Source: a virus (Duplodnaviria > Heunggongvirae > Uroviricota > Caudoviricetes). Taken from it: 4,754 bases of DNA. The notes beneath the pieces were generated by a model, which was not told the DNA's origin, did no database searches, and saw only the letters and a program-made list of their open reading frames with translations. The stretch lies in the IMG/VR virus record IMGVR_UViG_2690316131_000003; one strand, given 5' to 3'. Position numbers and translations under genes: made by a program. The first letter of the stretch is position 1, and the number at the start of each line of letters is the position of its first letter. Positions 1-4,754 of the stretch are shown here, in pieces.

Positions 1-140
1 TCCCGGGCAACCTGTGATGAAGACTGATTAATCGCCGTTGTGGCCACGCGGTTAATCGTCATTGCTGAAGCCGCCGGAATGGCGTTTTTACGAACCCGGC
101 TCAGATTATCAATCGCCTGAGCAAGCCCTTTTATCGCCAT
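1..140 (-). CDS. Z: Minor tail protein Z-like (lambda gpZ homolog), N-terminal 46 codons only; gene continues beyond the left window edge
   Basis: ATG at 140..138 (plus-strand cat), preceded by AGGGTGA-like RBS; translation MAIKGLAQAIDNLSRVRKNAIPAASAMTINRVATTAINQSSSQVAR matches my recollection of the lambda gpZ N-terminus (MAIKGLEQAVENLSR...); sits immediately downstream of FII as in lambda. Confidence 0.75.
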   Translation of the reverse strand, partial: MAIKGLAQAIDNLSRVRKNAIPAASAMTINRVATTAINQSSSQVAR

Positions 141-155
141 AATTTCACCCTGCGT

Positions 156-509
156 TTATCGTCGCCGGTTAACAGCGGGTGGTTGCCCACGGTTGAGCCA
201 GAGATAACAGCTTCCCCCGTCATCCGGAGAAACACGATCCACCCAGAACATCTCGCCGTTAATGGTCAGCGTGTCACCACGCCGCACGGCACGCACCGTA
301 TCCGTCCGCACAAATAATGACGGGCTGCTTCCTTCAATACGGACCCCGCCACCGGCAAAACCCAGCGACTCCGGATCGTCAAAAACCCCCTGAACTTCGC
401 CGCCACGTTGTGCCCCCGAGGTGAACTGCGCACAGAGCCCCATCACTTCAACAATCGTTCTGTCCACCCCGGCAAGGGCAGCATCAAAGGAATTCTCAAA
501 ATCACGCAT
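156..509 (-). CDS. FII: Head-tail joining / head completion protein FII (lambda gpFII-like), 117 aa
   Basis: ORF of 117 aa; C-terminal ...FWVDRVSPDDGGSCYLWLNRGQPPAVNRRR matches the lambda gpFII C-terminus as I recall it; start ATG overlaps the FI stop in the sequence ATGCGTGA (translational coupling); correct synteny position. Confidence 0.9.
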   Translation of the reverse strand: MRDFENSFDAALAGVDRTIVEVMGLCAQFTSGAQRGGEVQGVFDDPESLGFAGGGVRIEGSSPSLFVRTDTVRAVRRGDTLTINGEMFWVDRVSPDDGGSCYLWLNRGQPPAVNRRR

Positions 510-870
510 AAACGGCCATTCCGCTCCTAACCATGTCTTTTGCCACTGAGGGGGGCATCAGAATTACTCTGCCAGCATCAACATGCTCAACAGGCTCACC
601 TGTTTCATCGTCAACACCGCACAGGTAAAAACACTTCAGAAGCCTGATACGTTCCAGAATACCAACGTCATCCTCACCGGTGTGCCTGCATGCCTGCTCA
701 TGAACGGTATCATCAACATCTGCGATTTCATTTTCCGAGGCGCAAACCTCCTCTTCCCACTCTGCCACACGCTGTGCGATATCCGCAGCACTCCCCGACA
801 TATCCGCCTCGCGCCCCAGCAGACCAGCCAGTTCACGAAGACGTTTCTGATTTTCTTCTTTTGTTGCCAT
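502..870 (-). CDS. FI: DNA-packaging / head assembly protein FI (lambda gpFI-like), about 122 aa from the ATG at 870
   Basis: ORF track 502..918; I place the start at the internal ATG 870..868 (MATKEENQKRLRELAGLLG...) because it has a GGAG RBS 6 nt upstream, lies downstream of the E terminator hairpin, and aligns with the lambda gpFI N-terminus (MTKDELIARLRSLGEQL...); the 918 start is a GTG that overlaps the E stop region with no RBS. Confidence 0.8.
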   Translation of the reverse strand: MATKEENQKRLRELAGLLGREADMSGSAADIAQRVAEWEEEVCASENEIADVDDTVHEQACRHTGEDDVGILERIRLLKCFYLCGVDDETGEPVEHVDAGRVILMPPSVAKDMVRSGMAVYA

Positions 871-885
871 ATCCAGCTCCCTGTG

Positions 886-913
886 AAAAAAACACGGGGG
901 CATTTCGCCCCCG
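886..913 (-). terminator. Intrinsic-terminator-like hairpin plus U-tract immediately 3' of the major capsid gene
   Basis: On the minus strand: 7-bp all-G/C stem CGGGGGC (plus 907..913 / 895..901), 5-nt loop GAAAU, then UG and seven U (plus A-run 886..892); begins 8 nt after the E stop codon and ends just before the FI RBS. Confidence 0.6.
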
Positions 914-921
914 CTCACGGA

Positions 922-1950
922 TTATTTCACCTGTACCACCACAAACTCATCCGGATCCGGCAGCACCATCAGCGGCGCGGACTGCGTCATGGTGAATTCA
1001 CAGGACGGATCGCCCACGGTCAGCCAGTGTTTCGGGTAACGGGAAGAAGCCACCACTCCTTCAGACAACGCCTGTGCATCCTTAATGGCTCCATAGCAAC
1101 GAATCCCCTCTGCTGCCGTATTCCCCAGCACCAGCGTGCCCTCCGGCAGATAACGTTTTTCGGTACCGTCCTCTGCCACATAAGACGTTTTCGCTACCAC
1201 AATGGCCAGATCGCCGTAATACCCCTTGAAGGATACCACTGCGCCCAGATCTTTCACTGCCGTTTCGAGTTGTGAATTTGAACCGCGACGGGTATCCATT
1301 TTTTCGCGGAAAAGCTTAAAGCCATTCAGCAGACGCCAGACGGTACCGTCCATAATGGCAATATTCACAAGACCACTGGCCTGATCACAGAAAAGGTCGA
1401 TATCATATGTCGGGTCGAACGTGTCACGATCCTGTTTTGACCACTCCTTACCGCTACCTTGTATGATGTTATTCTTCGTCGATCGGCCAAAATCGACTTC
1501 AATTTTCTCGAACTGGTCTCCTTCCATCGTATATTTGCCATACAGCACGGCATTCACCGCCTGCATTTCTTCCACCTGCACAATAGCGTGCTCTTCCTGT
1601 TTGAGGTTATCAGTGATGATACGCAGACGACGGTAGGCCGGGTCGTTCAGCTGAGCCGGATCTTCACCGGGAAGGCGCTCAACCGCCTGCTGGTAATTAA
1701 ATTCGTGTTTCGGCTTGACGTAGCCCGGACGCAACACGCGGGTTTCACCACCACGATGGCGCAGCACTTTTCCTTCAACGATCGGGGAGACATAGGCCGC
1801 CACCGGCGTTTTTCCGGTAATTTTGTCCAGCATCACCTCTTCGGTGTGGAAATTCACCGTACGGCGGAAAAACAGCTCCAGAAATAGCGCACGGAATTTC
1901 ACTTTTTGTTCGGTATAACCGAGTAACTGGCGGGTCGTAAACAATCCCAT
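922..1950 (-). CDS. E: Major capsid protein E (lambda gpE-like), 342 aa
   Basis: 342-aa ORF; strong similarity along the whole length to lambda gpE as recalled (e.g. YVSPIV, PGYVKPKHE, DPAYRRLRI, VEEMQAV, TRRGSNSQLETAVKDLG, GDLAIVV, SAPLMVLPDPDEFV); AAAGGAA RBS about 8 nt upstream of the ATG at 1950. Confidence 0.95.
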   Translation of the reverse strand: MGLFTTRQLLGYTEQKVKFRALFLELFFRRTVNFHTEEVMLDKITGKTPVAAYVSPIVEGKVLRHRGGETRVLRPGYVKPKHEFNYQQAVERLPGEDPAQLNDPAYRRLRIITDNLKQEEHAIVQVEEMQAVNAVLYGKYTMEGDQFEKIEVDFGRSTKNNIIQGSGKEWSKQDRDTFDPTYDIDLFCDQASGLVNIAIMDGTVWRLLNGFKLFREKMDTRRGSNSQLETAVKDLGAVVSFKGYYGDLAIVVAKTSYVAEDGTEKRYLPEGTLVLGNTAAEGIRCYGAIKDAQALSEGVVASSRYPKHWLTVGDPSCEFTMTQSAPLMVLPDPDEFVVVQVK

Positions 1951-1978
1951 AAATCAGTTCCTTTCATTCAGAAATCAG

Positions 1979-2000
1979 TCAGGCCACCATGGTGGCCTGA
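1979..2000 (-). promoter_or_regulatory. 22-bp perfect palindrome (potential RNA hairpin, 9-bp stem, CAUG loop) in the D-E intergenic region
   Basis: TCAGGCCACCA|TGGTGGCCTGA reads identically on both strands; starts 7 nt after the D stop; no strong U-tract follows, so not a canonical terminator. Confidence 0.4.
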
Positions 2001-2007
2001 TAACGTG

Positions 2008-2355
2008 TTACGGCAGAGCCGCGTGACTCAGGGCTGTGCCGGCAAAGGCATTTGCCTTTTTGTGTTCATCCACACTGTCAGGCCAGCGGATTGCCTCCGT
2101 CGCAAAGGTCCCCGACTTGTAATAGGTCAGCACCGTCTCTGTGCCTTCAAGCGGCAGTACCAGTATGCCAACCGCACTACCGGCTTTCTGTCCATCCCAG
2201 ACCACCAGTTTCCCGGTGGCTTCATCCAGCATCAGGGGCGTCAGAGCCGGTGTTGCAGAAGAAATCCCGCTGCTGCCTGTGGCGGTATGAGCCGGATCAT
2301 TACCAGCAAAAATACGTACTTCCGCACGCTGTTCAGTGATGGTTTTCGTCACCAT
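2008..2355 (-). CDS. D: Head decoration protein D (lambda gpD-like), 115 aa
   Basis: 115-aa ORF; motifs DPAHTATG, PLMLD, KLVVWDG, VGIL, YKSGTF match the lambda gpD pattern as recalled; GAGGT RBS upstream of the ATG at 2355; position between C and E. Confidence 0.92.
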   Translation of the reverse strand: MVTKTITEQRAEVRIFAGNDPAHTATGSSGISSATPALTPLMLDEATGKLVVWDGQKAGSAVGILVLPLEGTETVLTYYKSGTFATEAIRWPDSVDEHKKANAFAGTALSHAALP

Positions 2356-2391
2356 TTTGTTAAAACCTCATATTGATGGTCAGCACTGACT

Positions 2392-2994
2392 TCATGGCAT
2401 GGCCATGAGCATTTTCACGTCCGCATCACCGTCTGCTGACGTCTGTGACACGCCACCCCGCACCGCTGCCGGTGAATGATTCGCCATGAAATGTTCAAAC
2501 AGGGCGGTTGTGGATGCAGAGACCGGTTCGGCCTTACCTGATCCCGCAGCCAGCACAGCCCGGGCGTTCTCCACGGTCATTCCCGGGCAGGCAGCCAGTT
2601 TTTCAGCCTGCGCTTCTGCCCCTTTTGCCTCATCCAGGGCCATGATCTGATCACGAAGTGAGGGCCCGGCATCCGCCAGTGGTGCAGCCGCCAGGATCGG
2701 GCGGGCTTTTTCCACCGTCATCTCCGGCATCGCCGCCAGCGTTGCCGCCAGTTGTTCACGACCGTTCGCTTCTTCACACGCCATAATGCGATCGGCTTCA
2801 CTCTGCGCGGATGCCACCGGCTGCTGCGGTGCCGCCGCGGCCAGAATCGCCCGGGCCTGTTCAACGCTCATGCCCTGTTGCCCTGCCAGCATCGTGGCAA
2901 GCTGTTCACGTCCTTTCGCTTCCTGACACGTCAGGATCCCCATCACTCGCTGGTTCTCCTGCACTGCGGCTTCCGTTGCAGTTAATTGCGGCAT
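2392..2994 (-). CDS. Nu3: Nu3-like scaffolding protein, translated from an in-frame internal start within C (200 aa, co-terminal with C)
   Basis: Internal ATG at 2994..2992 (Met302 of C), preceded by a consensus AGGAGG SD (plus 2999..3004 cctcct) 4 nt upstream; local context GGTMPQLTA... parallels the lambda Nu3 start inside C (established for lambda); downstream holds the scaffold motif. Confidence 0.6.
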   Translation of the reverse strand: MPQLTATEAAVQENQRVMGILTCQEAKGREQLATMLAGQQGMSVEQARAILAAAAPQQPVASAQSEADRIMACEEANGREQLAATLAAMPEMTVEKARPILAAAPLADAGPSLRDQIMALDEAKGAEAQAEKLAACPGMTVENARAVLAAGSGKAEPVSASTTALFEHFMANHSPAAVRGGVSQTSADGDADVKMLMAMP

Positions 2995-3897
2995 AGTGCC
3001 TCCTCTGACATTACTGTTCAGCGCCGTGGCCATCACACTGATGGCATCCGACGCATTGATTAATTCATCCGCCAGCCCGGCCTCAATGCCGGACTGACCT
3101 TCAAAAACGGCGGCCTCTGTTCCCGTGACGGCATCAACAGACAGACCGGTAAACATCGCCACTTTTTCGGCAAACATCCGGCGCGCCGCATCAATGCGCT
3201 GCTGCATGTCCTGGCGAACCTCTGCCGGTAAGGCTTCAAACTGATTGCCATCCACCTTGTGCGTCCCTGAGTAAATCAGCGTGATATCCACACCGGCCTG
3301 CGCCAGATGACCGGCATAGCTGACATGGCTCATCATCACGCCAATGGAGCCGATACGGGATGTCTGGGTAACCAGCCGTCGGGAGCAGGCCGACGCCAGC
3401 AGCATGGCTGCAGAACAGGCCGTGTCATTGCACAGTGCCCAGACCGGCTTCTGCTGACGGAGGCGGTAAATCATGTCAGCGCAGTCAAACGCGCCGGCGG
3501 CCTGCCCGCCCGGACTGTCAATGTCCAGCAGTACGCCCCGCACCTGGCTATCCGCCATTGCCTGCTGAAGACAGGCGACAATACCGTCATAGCCTGTCAT
3601 TCCGGAAAATGGCCGCATACCCCCCAGCCGGTGCACCAGCGTGCCGGTCACCGGCAGTACAGCAATACCGTTCACCACCCTGTAAACACGGGCCGGTCGT
3701 TTACCTCCGGCCATGTACTCGTCCGTTTCAGCCAGCATTCCGGGAGCATCAAACTGTACCTGCTGTTGTGGTACCGAAAGACTTGCTGCCCCCATCTCGC
3801 GCCCGAGCGCGCAAAAGAAAACCCGCGCATAGGCGGGCTCCAGAAGCAGCGGTTCATTGAATGCTGCGGCAATAATGTGTGAAAGATTACGTCTCAC
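2392..3897 (-). CDS. C: Head maturation protease / minor capsid protein C (S49 SppA-like peptidase family) with C-terminal scaffold (Nu3) domain, 501 aa
   Basis: 501-aa ORF; similarity to lambda gpC as recalled (FNEPL.LEPAYARVFF, NGIAVLPV.GTLV, SGMTGY.GI, LLD.D.PGG...AGAFDCAD.I, KPVWAL.ND..CSA..LLASA.SRRLVTQT.R.GSIGVMM.H, ITLIYSG.HKVDGN, GLADEL.N..DAI); start is GTG at 3897..3895 with GAGGAG about 10 nt upstream, overlapping the portal-fragment stop. Confidence 0.88.
   Translation of the reverse strand: MRRNLSHIIAAAFNEPLLLEPAYARVFFCALGREMGAASLSVPQQQVQFDAPGMLAETDEYMAGGKRPARVYRVVNGIAVLPVTGTLVHRLGGMRPFSGMTGYDGIVACLQQAMADSQVRGVLLDIDSPGGQAAGAFDCADMIYRLRQQKPVWALCNDTACSAAMLLASACSRRLVTQTSRIGSIGVMMSHVSYAGHLAQAGVDITLIYSGTHKVDGNQFEALPAEVRQDMQQRIDAARRMFAEKVAMFTGLSVDAVTGTEAAVFEGQSGIEAGLADELINASDAISVMATALNSNVRGGTMPQLTATEAAVQENQRVMGILTCQEAKGREQLATMLAGQQGMSVEQARAILAAAAPQQPVASAQSEADRIMACEEANGREQLAATLAAMPEMTVEKARPILAAAPLADAGPSLRDQIMALDEAKGAEAQAEKLAACPGMTVENARAVLAAGSGKAEPVSASTTALFEHFMANHSPAAVRGGVSQTSADGDADVKMLMAMP
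2512..2949 (-). repeat. Three diverged tandem copies of a ~47-53-aa scaffold motif inside the C/Nu3 coding region
   Basis: Protein-level repeats: RVMGILTCQEAKGREQLATMLAGQQGMSVEQARAILAAAAP / RIMACEEANGREQLAATLAAMPEMTVEKARPILAAAP / QIMALDEAKGAEAQAEKLAACPGMTVENARAVLAAG; DNA copies are clearly diverged, so not recent slippage. Confidence 0.6.
3088..3744. repeat. Direct repeat copy A (within the intact C gene), 657 bp, 654/657 identical to copy B
   Basis: Base-by-base comparison with 4098..4754 at constant offset 1010; only mismatches at 3583, 3619, 3681. Confidence 0.9.
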
Positions 3898-4090
3898 GTG
3901 GTGTTGTCTCCTCTTCCGGCCTGCGACTCTCCGCTATCTGCTGCTGATACGCCTGCGCTATCCACACCGGACGTGAGAGTCCGGCTTTTTGCCGCTCTGC
4001 AGATTCCCTGACCTGCTGGCGGAAAATGTCCTGATAATCCTCGCCCATCAGCGCCAGCTCTTTCTCATACGTGCTCAGTCCGGCCTCAAT
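3887..4090 (-). pseudogene. B: Orphan 3' fragment of the portal gene (lambda gpB-like C-terminal ~67 codons), fused out of frame to C-prime sequence
   Basis: Reading frame IEAGLSTYEKELALMGEDYQDIFRQQVRESAERQKAGLSRPVWIAQAYQQQIAESRRPEEETTPRET* ends with a stop (3887..3889) overlapping the C start, as at a portal-protease junction; it resembles what I recall of the lambda gpB C-terminus; upstream in the same frame (4091..4261) is out-of-frame C-prime sequence, not portal. Confidence 0.55.
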
Positions 4091-4107
4091 GCAAAAAGCC
4101 GGACTGA
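4075..4107. other. Duplication junction: 10-bp perfect inverted repeat (4075..4084 / 4098..4107) flanking a 13-nt spacer that contains the 7-bp novel insertion 4091..4097
   Basis: TCAGTCCGGC ... GCCGGACTGA; one arm lies in the portal fragment, the other in the C-prime copy; the native C copy has only an imperfect version (CAGCCCGGC / GCCGGACTG with 6-nt spacer). Confidence 0.8.
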
Positions 4108-4754
4108 CCTTCAAAAACGGCGGCCTCTGTTCCCGTGACGGCATCAACAGACAGACCGGTAAACATCGCCACTTTTTCGGCAAACATCCGGCGCGCCGCA
4201 TCAATGCGCTGCTGCATGTCCTGGCGAACCTCTGCCGGTAAGGCTTCAAACTGATTGCCATCCACCTTGTGCGTCCCTGAGTAAATCAGCGTGATATCCA
4301 CACCGGCCTGCGCCAGATGACCGGCATAGCTGACATGGCTCATCATCACGCCAATGGAGCCGATACGGGATGTCTGGGTAACCAGCCGTCGGGAGCAGGC
4401 CGACGCCAGCAGCATGGCTGCAGAACAGGCCGTGTCATTGCACAGTGCCCAGACCGGCTTCTGCTGACGGAGGCGGTAAATCATGTCAGCGCAGTCAAAC
4501 GCGCCGGCGGCCTGCCCGCCCGGACTGTCAATGTCCAGCAGTACGCCCCGCACCTGGCTATCCGCCATTGCCTGCTGAAGACAGGCGACAATGCCGTCAT
4601 AGCCTGTCATTCCGGAAAATGGCCGCATCCCCCCCAGCCGGTGCACCAGCGTGCCGGTCACCGGCAGTACAGCAATACCGTTCACCACCCGGTAAACACG
4701 GGCCGGTCGTTTACCTCCGGCCATGTACTCGTCCGTTTCAGCCAGCATTCCGGG
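4086..4754 (-). pseudogene. Truncated duplicate of the protease gene 5' portion (C-prime): would encode C residues about 52-269 in-window, then FLH-stop; 5' end beyond window
   Basis: ORF 4086..4748 translation is identical to C residues 54-269 then diverges after ...FEGQSG into FLH*; the frame stays open to the window edge (APGM... matches C residues 51-54); retains the putative protease core (CSAAMLLASA region) but lacks the scaffold domain. Confidence 0.7.
4098..4754. repeat. Direct repeat copy B (truncated C-prime), 657 bp, runs to the right window edge so its true length is unknown
   Basis: Identical to 3088..3744 except 4593, 4629, 4691; a further 11 nt (4080..4090 = 3077..3087) are identical at offset 1003 on the other side of the 7-bp insertion 4091..4097. 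Confidence 0.9.

What the first reader, a model, noticed from the sequence alone, without database searches (positions are those of the whole stretch)
4075..4107. Junction architecture: 11-nt microhomology, 7-bp insertion and a perfect 10-bp inverted repeat
On the minus strand, both the C gene (codons IEAG) and the portal tail (IEAG) contain ATTGAGGCCGG. In the junction, the C-derived sequence ends at ...CAGTCCGGC, then comes TTTTTGC (plus 4091..4097), which is absent from native C, then the shared ATTGAGGCCGG continuing into portal sequence. The insertion creates a perfect 10-bp inverted repeat (4075..4084 / 4098..4107), where native C has only an imperfect 9-bp version. This pattern is typical of template switching or microhomology-mediated recombination at a quasi-palindrome. 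It also shifts the reading frame by one, so C-prime terminates three codons later.
Basis: partly seen in the sequence, partly recalled or inferred. Interest (0 to 1): 0.55.

Follow-up and report, generated by a model that had tools for sequence, protein, structure and literature searches.

The report
Duplication scar in prophage head genes
This is a mutational scar in a lambda-like E. coli prophage, where about 1 kb spanning the end of the portal gene and the start of the head-protease gene was duplicated at a chance 13-base repeat and 7 extra bases were copied from the opposite strand nearby; it is a clean example of a known kind of replication error, not a new element.

Summary
The sequence features are real. 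On the minus strand a head-protease fragment (C', 4754..4098) is followed by 7 extra bases TTTTTGC (4097..4091). Then come the last ~200 nt of the portal gene and a complete C-D-E-FI-FII head module.

Native relatives (99.9% identical) have GTGATGCGC, not TTTTTGC, before ATTGAGG in the portal. The 7 bases are therefore new on both sides.

- The shared repeat is 13 nt (GCATTGAGGCCGG), not 11.
- The perfect 10-bp inverted repeat comes from the join itself, C left flank plus portal right flank. The insertion only widens its loop from 6 to 13 nt.
- AGTCCGGC+TTTTTGC (4105..4091) is the exact reverse complement of native portal-tail sequence 98 nt away (3978-3992). The insertion was therefore templated, extending an 8-bp inverted repeat to 15 bp (chance about 3e-4 to 1.4e-2).

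Best reading: a ~1-kb duplication joined at a 13-nt microhomology, plus a quasi-palindrome-type template switch.

The junction is absent from every collection searched. An independent 442-bp tandem duplication at the same gene boundary exists in another E. coli assembly.

C' is a truncated, probably dead, protease fragment. This is a known mechanism and of low interest. An in vitro or assembly artefact cannot be excluded.

The parts
4098..4754 (-). C' : upstream, partial copy of the S49 head-protease gene (lambda gpC-like). It runs off the window end.
   Evidence: It is offset by 1010 nt from the full copy at 3088-3744 and identical to it except at 4593, 4629 and 4691. Pfam Peptidase_S49 matches only profile positions 3-128 of 154, so the domain is truncated.
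4091..4097 (-). 7-nt insertion TTTTTGC (plus strand GCAAAAA). Its placement is ambiguous by 2 nt because GC flanks the T run on both sides.
   Evidence: It is absent from native C and native portal and from every collection searched.
4086..4088 (-). TGA stop of the frameshifted C' (…GQSGFLH*)
   Evidence: ORF list and translation.
4080..4092 (-). Junction copy of the 13-nt repeat GCATTGAGGCCGG, which is shared by the portal tail and C
   Evidence: Direct repeat D13 with spacing 1003. It is the longest portal-by-C direct repeat in native L003, at 3001 and 4004.
3077..3089 (-). Copy of the 13-nt repeat inside the full-length C gene
4075..4084 (.). Portal-derived arm of the perfect 10-bp inverted repeat (minus strand GCCGGACTGA)
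   Evidence: Exact reverse complement of 4098-4107. Hairpin -13.3 kcal/mol.
4098..4107 (.). C-derived arm of the perfect 10-bp inverted repeat (minus strand TCAGTCCGGC)
4091..4105 (.). 15-nt tract AGTCCGGC+TTTTTGC (minus strand): 8 native C bases plus the 7 inserted bases
   Evidence: Perfect inverted match I6 to 3978-3992.
3978..3992 (.). Native portal-tail sequence (minus strand GCAAAAAGCCGGACT) that served as the template for the insertion
   Evidence: It is present in native L001, L003 and L004 at the same place and in 28 of about 107 related loci with both 13-mers. Chance of such a match is 3e-4 (8-nt flank) to 1.4e-2 (4-nt flank).
3887..4092 (-). Duplicated 3' tail of the portal gene (last ~67 codons plus stop). 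It is not attached to a portal body here.
   Evidence: Matches native portal 3' ends at 99-100% identity. BLAST alignment starts at window 4092.
2392..3897 (-). Complete S49 head-protease/scaffold gene (C, 501 aa). Its GTG start overlaps the portal stop.
   Evidence: ORF. Annotated as S49 family peptidase in L003 and L004. Pfam hit.

Best explanation
The site is the novel joint of a ~1-kb direct duplication in a phage-21/lambda-like E. coli prophage. The unit is 1003 nt of native sequence plus 7 inserted nt, giving a period of 1010. The joint links codon ~272 of the head-protease gene C back to the last ~67 codons of the portal gene.

Two error steps are written in the sequence:
1. A jump between two chance copies of the 13-nt repeat GCATTGAGGCCGG, one in C and one 1003 nt upstream in the portal tail. 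This jump makes the duplication.
2. A quasi-palindrome-type template switch. A nascent strand ending in ...AGTCCGGC paired with the complementary GCCGGACT of the portal tail on a strand of the same sense, copied 7 nt (TTTTTGC), and returned by a 2-nt GC match.

The sequence does not say whether these were one unstable replication episode with serial switches (MMBIR/FoSTeS-like) or two separate events. Because both breakpoints coincide exactly with the 13-nt repeat, that repeat must have been used.

Consequences:
- The C left flank and portal right flank happen to form a perfect 10-bp hairpin.
- The 7 nt shift C' by +1, so it stops after 3 codons instead of making an in-frame C'::portal-tail fusion.
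- C' lacks the end of the S49 domain and is probably inert.
- The downstream complete C keeps its own GAGGAG ribosome-binding site and GTG start.

Shown: the join, the foreignness of the 7 nt, and their exact inverted template. Inferred: a replicative in vivo origin, the order of events, and an intact portal gene and complete first copy upstream of the window (tandem topology).
For: - Native references L003 and L004 match window 4090..1 with 1-2 mismatches and lack the duplication.
- The C' part maps to native C ending exactly at ...CAGTCCGGC. The portal part starts at GCATTGAGG.
- The 13-mer is present at both parental sites and is the longest portal-by-C direct repeat.
- Native portal has GTGATGCGC, not TTTTTGC. 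The control scan found at least 120 viral contigs with the native motif against 0 with the variant.
- The 15-nt perfect inverted match 4091-4105 / 3978-3992 (I6) is the only match of 9 nt or more covering the insertion near the junction. The one other such match in the 10-kb native locus is an 11-mer about 6 kb away.
- Monte Carlo chance of such a templated match: 3e-4 with an 8-nt flank, 1.4e-2 with a 4-nt flank.
- An independent, perfect 442-bp tandem duplication with full portal, C'(58 aa)::portal tail, then full C exists in E. coli BDHQ01000085.1. This shows the inferred topology occurs in assembled genomes.
- The definition of quasi-palindrome mutation, in which a template switch makes an imperfect inverted repeat more perfect, is taken from PMC7202029.
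Against: - The window ends inside C', so the upstream copy and an intact portal gene are not seen.
- The two C copies differ at 3 sites in the distal 160 nt, and those variants are natural alleles of other prophages. A simple recent intra-element duplication alone is therefore insufficient. It needs either a second related prophage as partner or a later homologous exchange.
- The return switch rests on only 2 nt.
- The inverted arms are 98 nt apart in the product and about 890 nt apart in the native order, much further than in classical quasi-palindrome hotspots.
- Neither hypothetical intermediate was found anywhere: the simple join without the 7 nt, or C carrying only the 7-nt insertion.
- No reads are available, so an in vitro origin cannot be excluded.
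Confidence: 0.7

Rival explanations
1. The joint is an artefact: a chimeric molecule made in vitro by polymerase template switching (PCR or multiple-displacement amplification), or a mis-join by the assembler between paralogous prophages of one genome.
For: - The junction is unique: 0 of 5,426 complete E. coli genomes, 0 phage records, 0 plasmids, and 0 related viral, genome or metagenome contigs.
- The window ends inside the repeat.
- The distal part of C' carries alleles of other prophages, as expected if reads or graph paths from two prophage paralogs were mixed. E. coli genomes that carry any copy of this module have a median of 2.
- In vitro strand-displacing polymerases are known to make inverted, microhomology-primed chimeras (own knowledge: Lasken and Stockwell 2007).
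Against: - An assembler cannot invent 7 bases that are an exact inverted copy of nearby sequence, so only a polymerase artefact remains.
- Such an artefact would have to dominate the consensus at this site.
- The proximal 495 nt of the two copies are identical and the join uses the longest available repeat, as in vivo events do.
- A comparable duplication is present in an independent NCBI assembly.
Confidence: 0.15
2. The chemistry is the same but the topology is not a tandem duplication. C' would be the truncated right end of a different, degraded prophage, or of the first unit of a tandem dilysogen or concatemer. It would have been joined by illegitimate recombination or deletion to the portal tail of a second prophage.
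For: - Three allelic differences in C' match other natural prophage lineages.
- The best natural C allele is 1 mismatch from C', against 3 mismatches for the window's own C.
- E. coli genomes commonly carry 2-6 copies of this module.
Against: - The 495 nt next to the joint are identical between the copies, which is the simplest outcome of a duplication within one element.
- A deletion between tandem prophage copies gives a product indistinguishable from a 1-kb tandem duplication.
- The sequence upstream of the window is unknown.
Confidence: 0.2
3. TTTTTGC is native portal sequence in this phage lineage, so the join would be a plain microhomology join with no insertion.
For: None found.
Against: - All five native E. 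coli loci, L007, and at least 120 IMG/VR contigs read GATGCGC-ATTGAGG.
- The pattern TTTTGCATTGAGGCCGGACTGAG has 0 matches in viral and metagenome contigs.
- Portal-side BLAST alignments all start at window 4092.
Confidence: 0.01
4. The 7 nt are untemplated filler, or a slipped direct copy of the TTTTTG that lies 15 nt upstream in C (CCGTTTTTGAAGG), added during end-joining.
For: TTTTTG (6 nt) does occur 15 nt upstream on the same strand.
Against: - That direct match has no flanking homology. The primer end ...CCGGC is opposite ...GCCG, with a terminal mismatch, and the match covers only 6 of the 7 nt.
- The inverted template matches 15 of 15 nt including an 8-nt primer, with chance about 3e-4.
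- E. coli has no canonical NHEJ (own knowledge).
Confidence: 0.03
5. The hairpin and frameshift form a functional element, such as a terminator, a regulatory stem-loop, or a programmed frameshift or stop that controls the expression ratio of C' to C.
For: A strong local hairpin (-13.3 kcal/mol, z = -5.4) sits exactly where C' stops.
Against: - No T or U run follows the stem on either strand, and the scan finds no terminator or promoter at the joint.
- The structure is unique to this one sequence and absent from about 1,870 related genomes, so it shows no conservation.
- C' truncates the S49 fold.
Confidence: 0.02

Closest known systems
Tandem duplications formed by recombination or slippage between short direct homologies in E. 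coli (e.g. ampC 12-13-bp repeats, Edlund and Normark 1981; own knowledge)
   Same: The distal end of a segment is joined to its proximal start at a chance direct repeat of about 13 nt. That repeat is present at both parental sites and once at the join. The unit is about 1 kb.
   Different: This join carries 7 extra templated bases. Only 657 nt of the upstream copy are visible. The copies differ at 3 sites.
Quasi-palindrome-associated template-switch mutation (Ripley 1982; Lovett laboratory reporters; PMC7202029, PMC6357072)
   Same: A pre-existing imperfect inverted repeat (8 bp, AGTCCGGC/GCCGGACT) becomes more perfect (15 bp). The new bases are the exact complement of the partner arm, and the result is a frameshift.
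   Different: The arms are 98 nt apart in the product and about 890 nt apart in the native order, instead of a few to tens of nt. The event is coupled to, or sits exactly on, a 1-kb duplication joint. The return step has only 2 nt of homology.
MMBIR / FoSTeS-type complex rearrangements with serial template switches (Hastings et al. 2009; Slack et al. 2006 lac amplification junctions; own knowledge)
   Same: Breakpoints at microhomologies of 2-13 nt, with a short insertion templated from nearby sequence in inverted orientation. This is compatible with several switches inside about 20 nt of synthesis.
   Different: There is no evidence here for a break, stress induction or the proteins involved. 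A two-event history is equally compatible.
Tandem inversion duplication (TID) of Salmonella and E. coli (Kugelberg et al. 2010; cited in PMC3857721 and PMC3533179)
   Same: It is initiated by snap-back or strand switch at short quasi-palindromes and leaves inverted material between direct copies.
   Different: A TID has a full inverted central copy, later trimmed by deletions. Here only 7 new (15 total) inverted nt exist, and no inverted copy of the unit.
442-bp tandem duplication at the same portal/C boundary in E. coli BDHQ01000085.1 (L007, protein P0005)
   Same: The gene order is the one inferred here: full portal, C' fragment fused to a duplicated portal tail, then complete C.
   Different: Different breakpoints (C codon 58; portal tail 92 codons), 1-nt junction homology, no insertion, an in-frame fusion, and copies that are 100% identical.

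Membership tests
Short-homology (microhomology) tandem duplication | Two head-to-tail direct copies of one segment | tested here: inconclusive
   Direct repeat with period 1010: 4098-4754 against 3088-3744, 654 of 657 identical. The upstream copy runs off the window, so the full first unit and an intact portal are not seen.
Short-homology (microhomology) tandem duplication | The novel joint is the distal end joined to the proximal start, at a short repeat present at both parental sites | tested here: met
   13-nt GCATTGAGGCCGG lies at native L003 3001 (portal) and 4004 (C) and once at the joint, 4080-4092. The 7 extra nt depart from the simple form.
Quasi-palindrome-associated template-switch mutation | A pre-existing imperfect inverted repeat in the parental sequence | tested here: met
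   Native C has AGTCCGGC and native portal tail has GCAAAAAGCCGGACT, an 8-bp complementary core.
Quasi-palindrome-associated template-switch mutation | The mutant bases are the exact complement of the partner arm, making the repeat more perfect | tested here: met
   The repeat goes from 8 bp to a 15-bp perfect inverted repeat, 4091-4105 / 3978-3992. Chance is 3e-4 to 1.4e-2.
Quasi-palindrome-associated template-switch mutation | Arms close enough to form one hairpin at the fork (spacers of a few to tens of nt in the described hotspots) | tested here: not met
   The spacer is 98 nt in the product and about 890 nt in the native order. The 148-nt fold prefers the local 10-bp hairpin over the 15-bp long-range pairing. 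I therefore say it works like a quasi-palindrome switch rather than filing it as a typical member.
Quasi-palindrome-associated template-switch mutation | Arises during DNA replication in vivo | not testable with these tools
   No reads, strains or genetics are available.
MMBIR / serial replication template switching | Microhomology at each breakpoint and short templated insertions from nearby sequence | tested here: met
   Microhomologies of 8 nt (inverted), 2 nt and 13 nt. The 7-nt insertion is templated 98 nt away.
MMBIR / serial replication template switching | A single event initiated at a collapsed fork or one-ended break | not testable with these tools
   Neither intermediate was found in any collection. 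This neither proves nor disproves a single event.
Tandem inversion duplication (TID) | A central inverted copy of the duplicated unit between two direct copies | tested here: not met
   Only 15 nt are inverted. No long inverted repeat of the unit exists in the window.
Intrinsic terminator / regulatory hairpin | A GC-rich stem followed by a T/U run, and conservation among relatives | tested here: not met
   No terminator-like site at 4075-4107. The joint is absent from all relatives.

The most novel reading that the evidence does not exclude
The portal/protease gene boundary of lambda-like prophages could be a recurrent site of small tandem duplications that are kept by selection. Two independent events were seen, this window and L007. 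One possible advantage is that a truncated protease fragment or a C'::portal-tail fusion interferes with head assembly of the resident or a superinfecting phage. In that case the templated 7-nt frameshift here would be a secondary, selected fix that removes a toxic in-frame C'::portal-tail fusion.
Probability: 0.04. Interest if true: 0.45.

Novelty: new member of a known kind. Interest (0 to 1): 0.2.

Why it matters
It matters little beyond the locus.

- It gives a naturally occurring, fully interpretable example in which a microhomology duplication joint and a templated, inverted 7-nt insertion sit on the same base pairs. That is a useful illustration of serial template switching in enterobacterial prophage DNA.
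- It is also a caution for annotation. The region would be called as a truncated S49 peptidase plus an orphan portal fragment.
- If the joint is real, the prophage carries 1 kb of extra DNA and a dead protease fragment upstream of an intact C gene, and it is probably still assembly-competent.
- If the joint is an artefact, it flags a chimeric assembly.

Tried and rejected
- Source and sister copies of the joint. I used megablast of the junction against E. coli complete genomes, phages and plasmids. I ran exact-pattern scans of viral, genome and metagenome contigs. The only hit was a chance 21-mer in a Syntrophobacteraceae MAG (L002).
- Exact protein look-ups. The 124-aa junction ORF and the 222-aa C' fragment are not on record.
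- Protein search with the C' tail gave only 4 short fragments, none ending in FLH.
- The two hypothetical intermediates. The simple join without the 7 nt was not found. C carrying only the insertion is covered and was not found either.
- Native portal carrying TTTTTGC: rejected.
- The insertion as creator of the hairpin: rejected, -13.7 kcal/mol without it against -13.3 with it.
- Direct-strand source of the 7 nt: no direct match of 9 nt or more covers the insertion.
- Terminator or promoter at the joint: none.
- A TID-type inverted central copy: none.

Full report
**What the window is.** Read on the minus strand, the window is the head-gene module of a lambda/phage-21-like E. coli prophage.

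| Feature | Coordinates (minus strand) |
|---|---|
| Fragment of the S49 head-protease gene (C') | 4754..4098 |
| Seven extra bases | 4097..4091 |
| Last ~67 codons of the portal gene | 4092..3887 |
| Complete C (501 aa) | 3897..2392 |
| D | 2355..2008 |
| E | 1950..922 |
| FI | 918..502 |
| FII | 509..156 |

These come, with annotation of the native relatives. Two complete E. coli genomes (CP148357 = L003, CP050998 = L004) match window 4090..1 with only 2 and 1 mismatches respectively. Both have the ordinary order portal-C-D-E with no duplication.

**Check of the observation.**
- 4075-4084 is the exact reverse complement of 4098-4107.
- Minus-strand TTTTTGC sits at 4097..4091.
- ATTGAGGCCGG is in both C and the portal tail.
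- C' reads …GQSG-FLH-stop, with TGA at 4088..4086.
- The local hairpin folds at -13.3 kcal/mol, z = -5.4 against shuffles.

Two refinements follow from the native sequences.
- The shared exact repeat is 13 nt (GCATTGAGGCCGG), at native L003 3001 and 4004. It is the longest direct repeat between the portal and C genes. A 13-mer repeat is about what chance gives somewhere in 10 kb.
- Both arms of the 10-bp inverted repeat lie outside the inserted bases. One arm is C's left flank (TCAGTCCGGC). The other is the portal's right flank (GCCGGACTGA).

| Sequence folded | Free energy |
|---|---|
| Hypothetical join without the 7 nt | -13.7 kcal/mol |
| Observed join | -13.3 kcal/mol |
| Native C | -9.4 kcal/mol |
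| Native portal | -1.6 kcal/mol |

The join, not the insertion, makes the perfect hairpin. The insertion only widens the loop from 6 to 13 nt.

Native portal does contain ATTGAGGCCGG at the corresponding place, but it is preceded by GTGATGCGC, not TTTTTGC. This holds in all five native E. coli loci I read and in L007.
- The TTTTGC variant found 0 in viral contigs and 0 in metagenome contigs.

The seven bases are therefore foreign to both parental genes.

**Where the seven bases came from.** The repeat finder reported a 15-nt perfect inverted match, 3978-3992 / 4091-4105 (I6).
- On the minus strand the junction reads AGTCCGGC·TTTTTGC.
- The native portal tail, 98 nt further on, reads GCAAAAA·GCCGGACT, its exact reverse complement.
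- The 8-nt core AGTCCGGC/GCCGGACT already exists in native C and native portal. The insertion extends it by exactly the 7 new bases.

In the native 10-kb locus only one other match of 9 nt or more covers the insertion, an 11-mer about 6 kb away. I ran a Monte Carlo with random 7-mers of the locus composition. A random insertion lies next to a matching flank on either strand of the 10-kb locus with these probabilities:

| Flank length required | Probability |
|---|---|
| 8 nt | 3e-4 |
| 6 nt | 1.4e-3 |
| 4 nt | 1.4e-2 |

The only direct-strand candidate is TTTTTG, 15 nt upstream in C. It covers 6 of the 7 nt and has no flanking homology. I conclude that the insertion was templated from the opposite strand.

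**Mechanism.** Two signatures coincide on the same bases.
- Signature (a): both breakpoints sit exactly on the 13-nt repeat. That is very unlikely unless the repeat was used, so a jump from the C copy to the portal copy, 1003 nt upstream, made the duplication.
- Signature (b): an imperfect inverted repeat was made more perfect by copying the partner arm. This is the defining outcome of quasi-palindrome-associated template switching (PMC7202029; Ripley 1982 is cited there).

A minimal path has five steps.
1. A nascent coding-sense strand ends at …AGTCCGGC.
2. It pairs with GCCGGACT on a same-sense strand, either its own upstream portal tail or the sister template.
3. It copies TTTTTGC.
4. It returns by its terminal GC and copies ATTGAGGCCGG.
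5. It slips between the two 13-mers, in the same episode or in a separate event.

A two-event history would be a simple 13-nt duplication first and the templated insertion later. It is equally compatible with the sequence. I looked for both intermediates and found neither. The simple join has 0 of 5,426 E. coli genomes and 0 viral contigs. C carrying only the insertion has no hit.

The sequence shows the join, the foreign 7 nt and their template. The replicative in vivo origin, the order of events and the tandem topology are inferred.

**Topology and the three SNPs.** The window stops inside C', so an intact portal upstream is inferred, not seen.
- Support for the topology comes from an independent case. 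E. coli BDHQ01000085.1 (L007) has full portal, then a 150-aa C(1-58)::portal-tail fusion, then full C. This is a perfect 442-bp tandem duplication with 1-nt junction homology.
- Against a simple recent duplication, C' differs from the full C copy at 4593, 4629 and 4691, while the 495 nt next to the joint are identical.
- Those three variants are natural alleles: 9 genomes match the distal 215 nt exactly.
- No genome matches all 657 nt; the best has 1 mismatch.

So either the left partner was a closely related second prophage or concatemer unit, or a later homologous exchange replaced the upstream part, or reads or graph paths of paralogous prophages were mixed during assembly.

**Consequences for the genes.**
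- Without the 7 nt the join would be in frame (…GQSG-IEAGLSTYE…), giving a C'::portal-tail fusion.
- With the 7 nt, C' stops after FLH.
- C' covers Pfam Peptidase_S49 profile positions 3-128 of 154, against 3-151 in the full C. It lacks the end of the protease fold and all of the scaffold part, and is probably inert.
- The complete C keeps GAGGAG upstream of its GTG start, read directly.
- There is no terminator-like or promoter-like site at the joint. The structure is not conserved in any of about 1,870 related genomes. A regulatory role is therefore unsupported.

**Artefact.** The joint is found nowhere else. An assembler cannot invent an inverted-templated 7-mer. An in vitro polymerase chimera could look exactly like this, and the allelic mosaic at the window end is compatible with mixed prophage paralogs. 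I put this at about 0.15. Only reads or PCR can settle it.

**Comparison with known kinds.** The site works like a short-homology tandem duplication combined with a quasi-palindrome or MMBIR-type template switch.
- It meets the sequence criteria of both. It fails the short-spacer criterion of typical quasi-palindrome hotspots, with a spacer of 98 nt in the product and about 890 nt natively.
- It is not a tandem inversion duplication, because there is no inverted central copy.

**Verdict.** The feature is a new instance of a known mutational mechanism, of low general interest (0.2).

Noticed in passing
L007 5732-6616 (E. coli BDHQ01000085.1; protein P0005): An independent, perfect 442-bp tandem duplication across the same portal/C boundary. 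It makes an in-frame 150-aa C(1-58)::portal-tail(92 aa) fusion between a full portal and a full C. Junction homology is 1 nt.
   Followed up: yes
window 4593, 4629, 4691 (versus 3583, 3619, 3681): These are the only three differences between the two C copies, and all lie in the 160 nt farthest from the joint. All three are natural alleles of other E. coli prophages. This suggests a second parental prophage, a later homologous exchange, or assembly mixing.
   Followed up: partly
window 3967-3993, + strand: A terminator-like hairpin CCGGAC-GTGAGA-GTCCGG followed by CTTTTTGCCG lies on the antisense strand of the portal tail. It is native, and its 3' part is the very sequence that templated the 7-nt insertion.
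   Followed up: partly
window 1979-2000: A perfect 22-bp palindrome TCAGGCCACCATGGTGGCCTGA sits in the short spacer between the decoration gene D and the major capsid gene E. It is also present in the native relatives. Its function was not examined.
   Followed up: no
window 2392-2990, minus strand (C-terminal third of C): Three tandem ~40-50-aa repeats occur in the scaffold part of the protease: …QEAKGREQLATMLAGQQGMSVEQARAILAAA…, …EEANGREQLAATLAAMPEMTVEKARPILAAA…, …DEAKGAEAQAEKLAACPGMTVENARAVLAAG…
   Followed up: no
protein P0001 (97 aa, NCBI, contig of 2768 nt): A portal-tail ORF in another assembly carries an internal duplication of ~25 aa (EKELALMGEDYQDIFRQQVRESAER twice). This is another small duplication in the same 200-nt region.
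   Followed up: no
window 1707-1951 (5' end of E): The Aeromonas phage AP1 record MT713136.1 (254 kb) holds 245 nt that are 96.7% identical to this E. coli prophage capsid gene, about 4 kb from the record's end (250152-250396). This looks like contamination or a chimeric record.
   Followed up: no
L002 2128-2148 (Syntrophobacteraceae MAG CAZURN010000148.1): This is the only exact match to the 21-mer CCGGCTTTTTGCATTGAGGCC in the species-representative genomes. The organism is unrelated, so I took it as a chance match.
   Followed up: no
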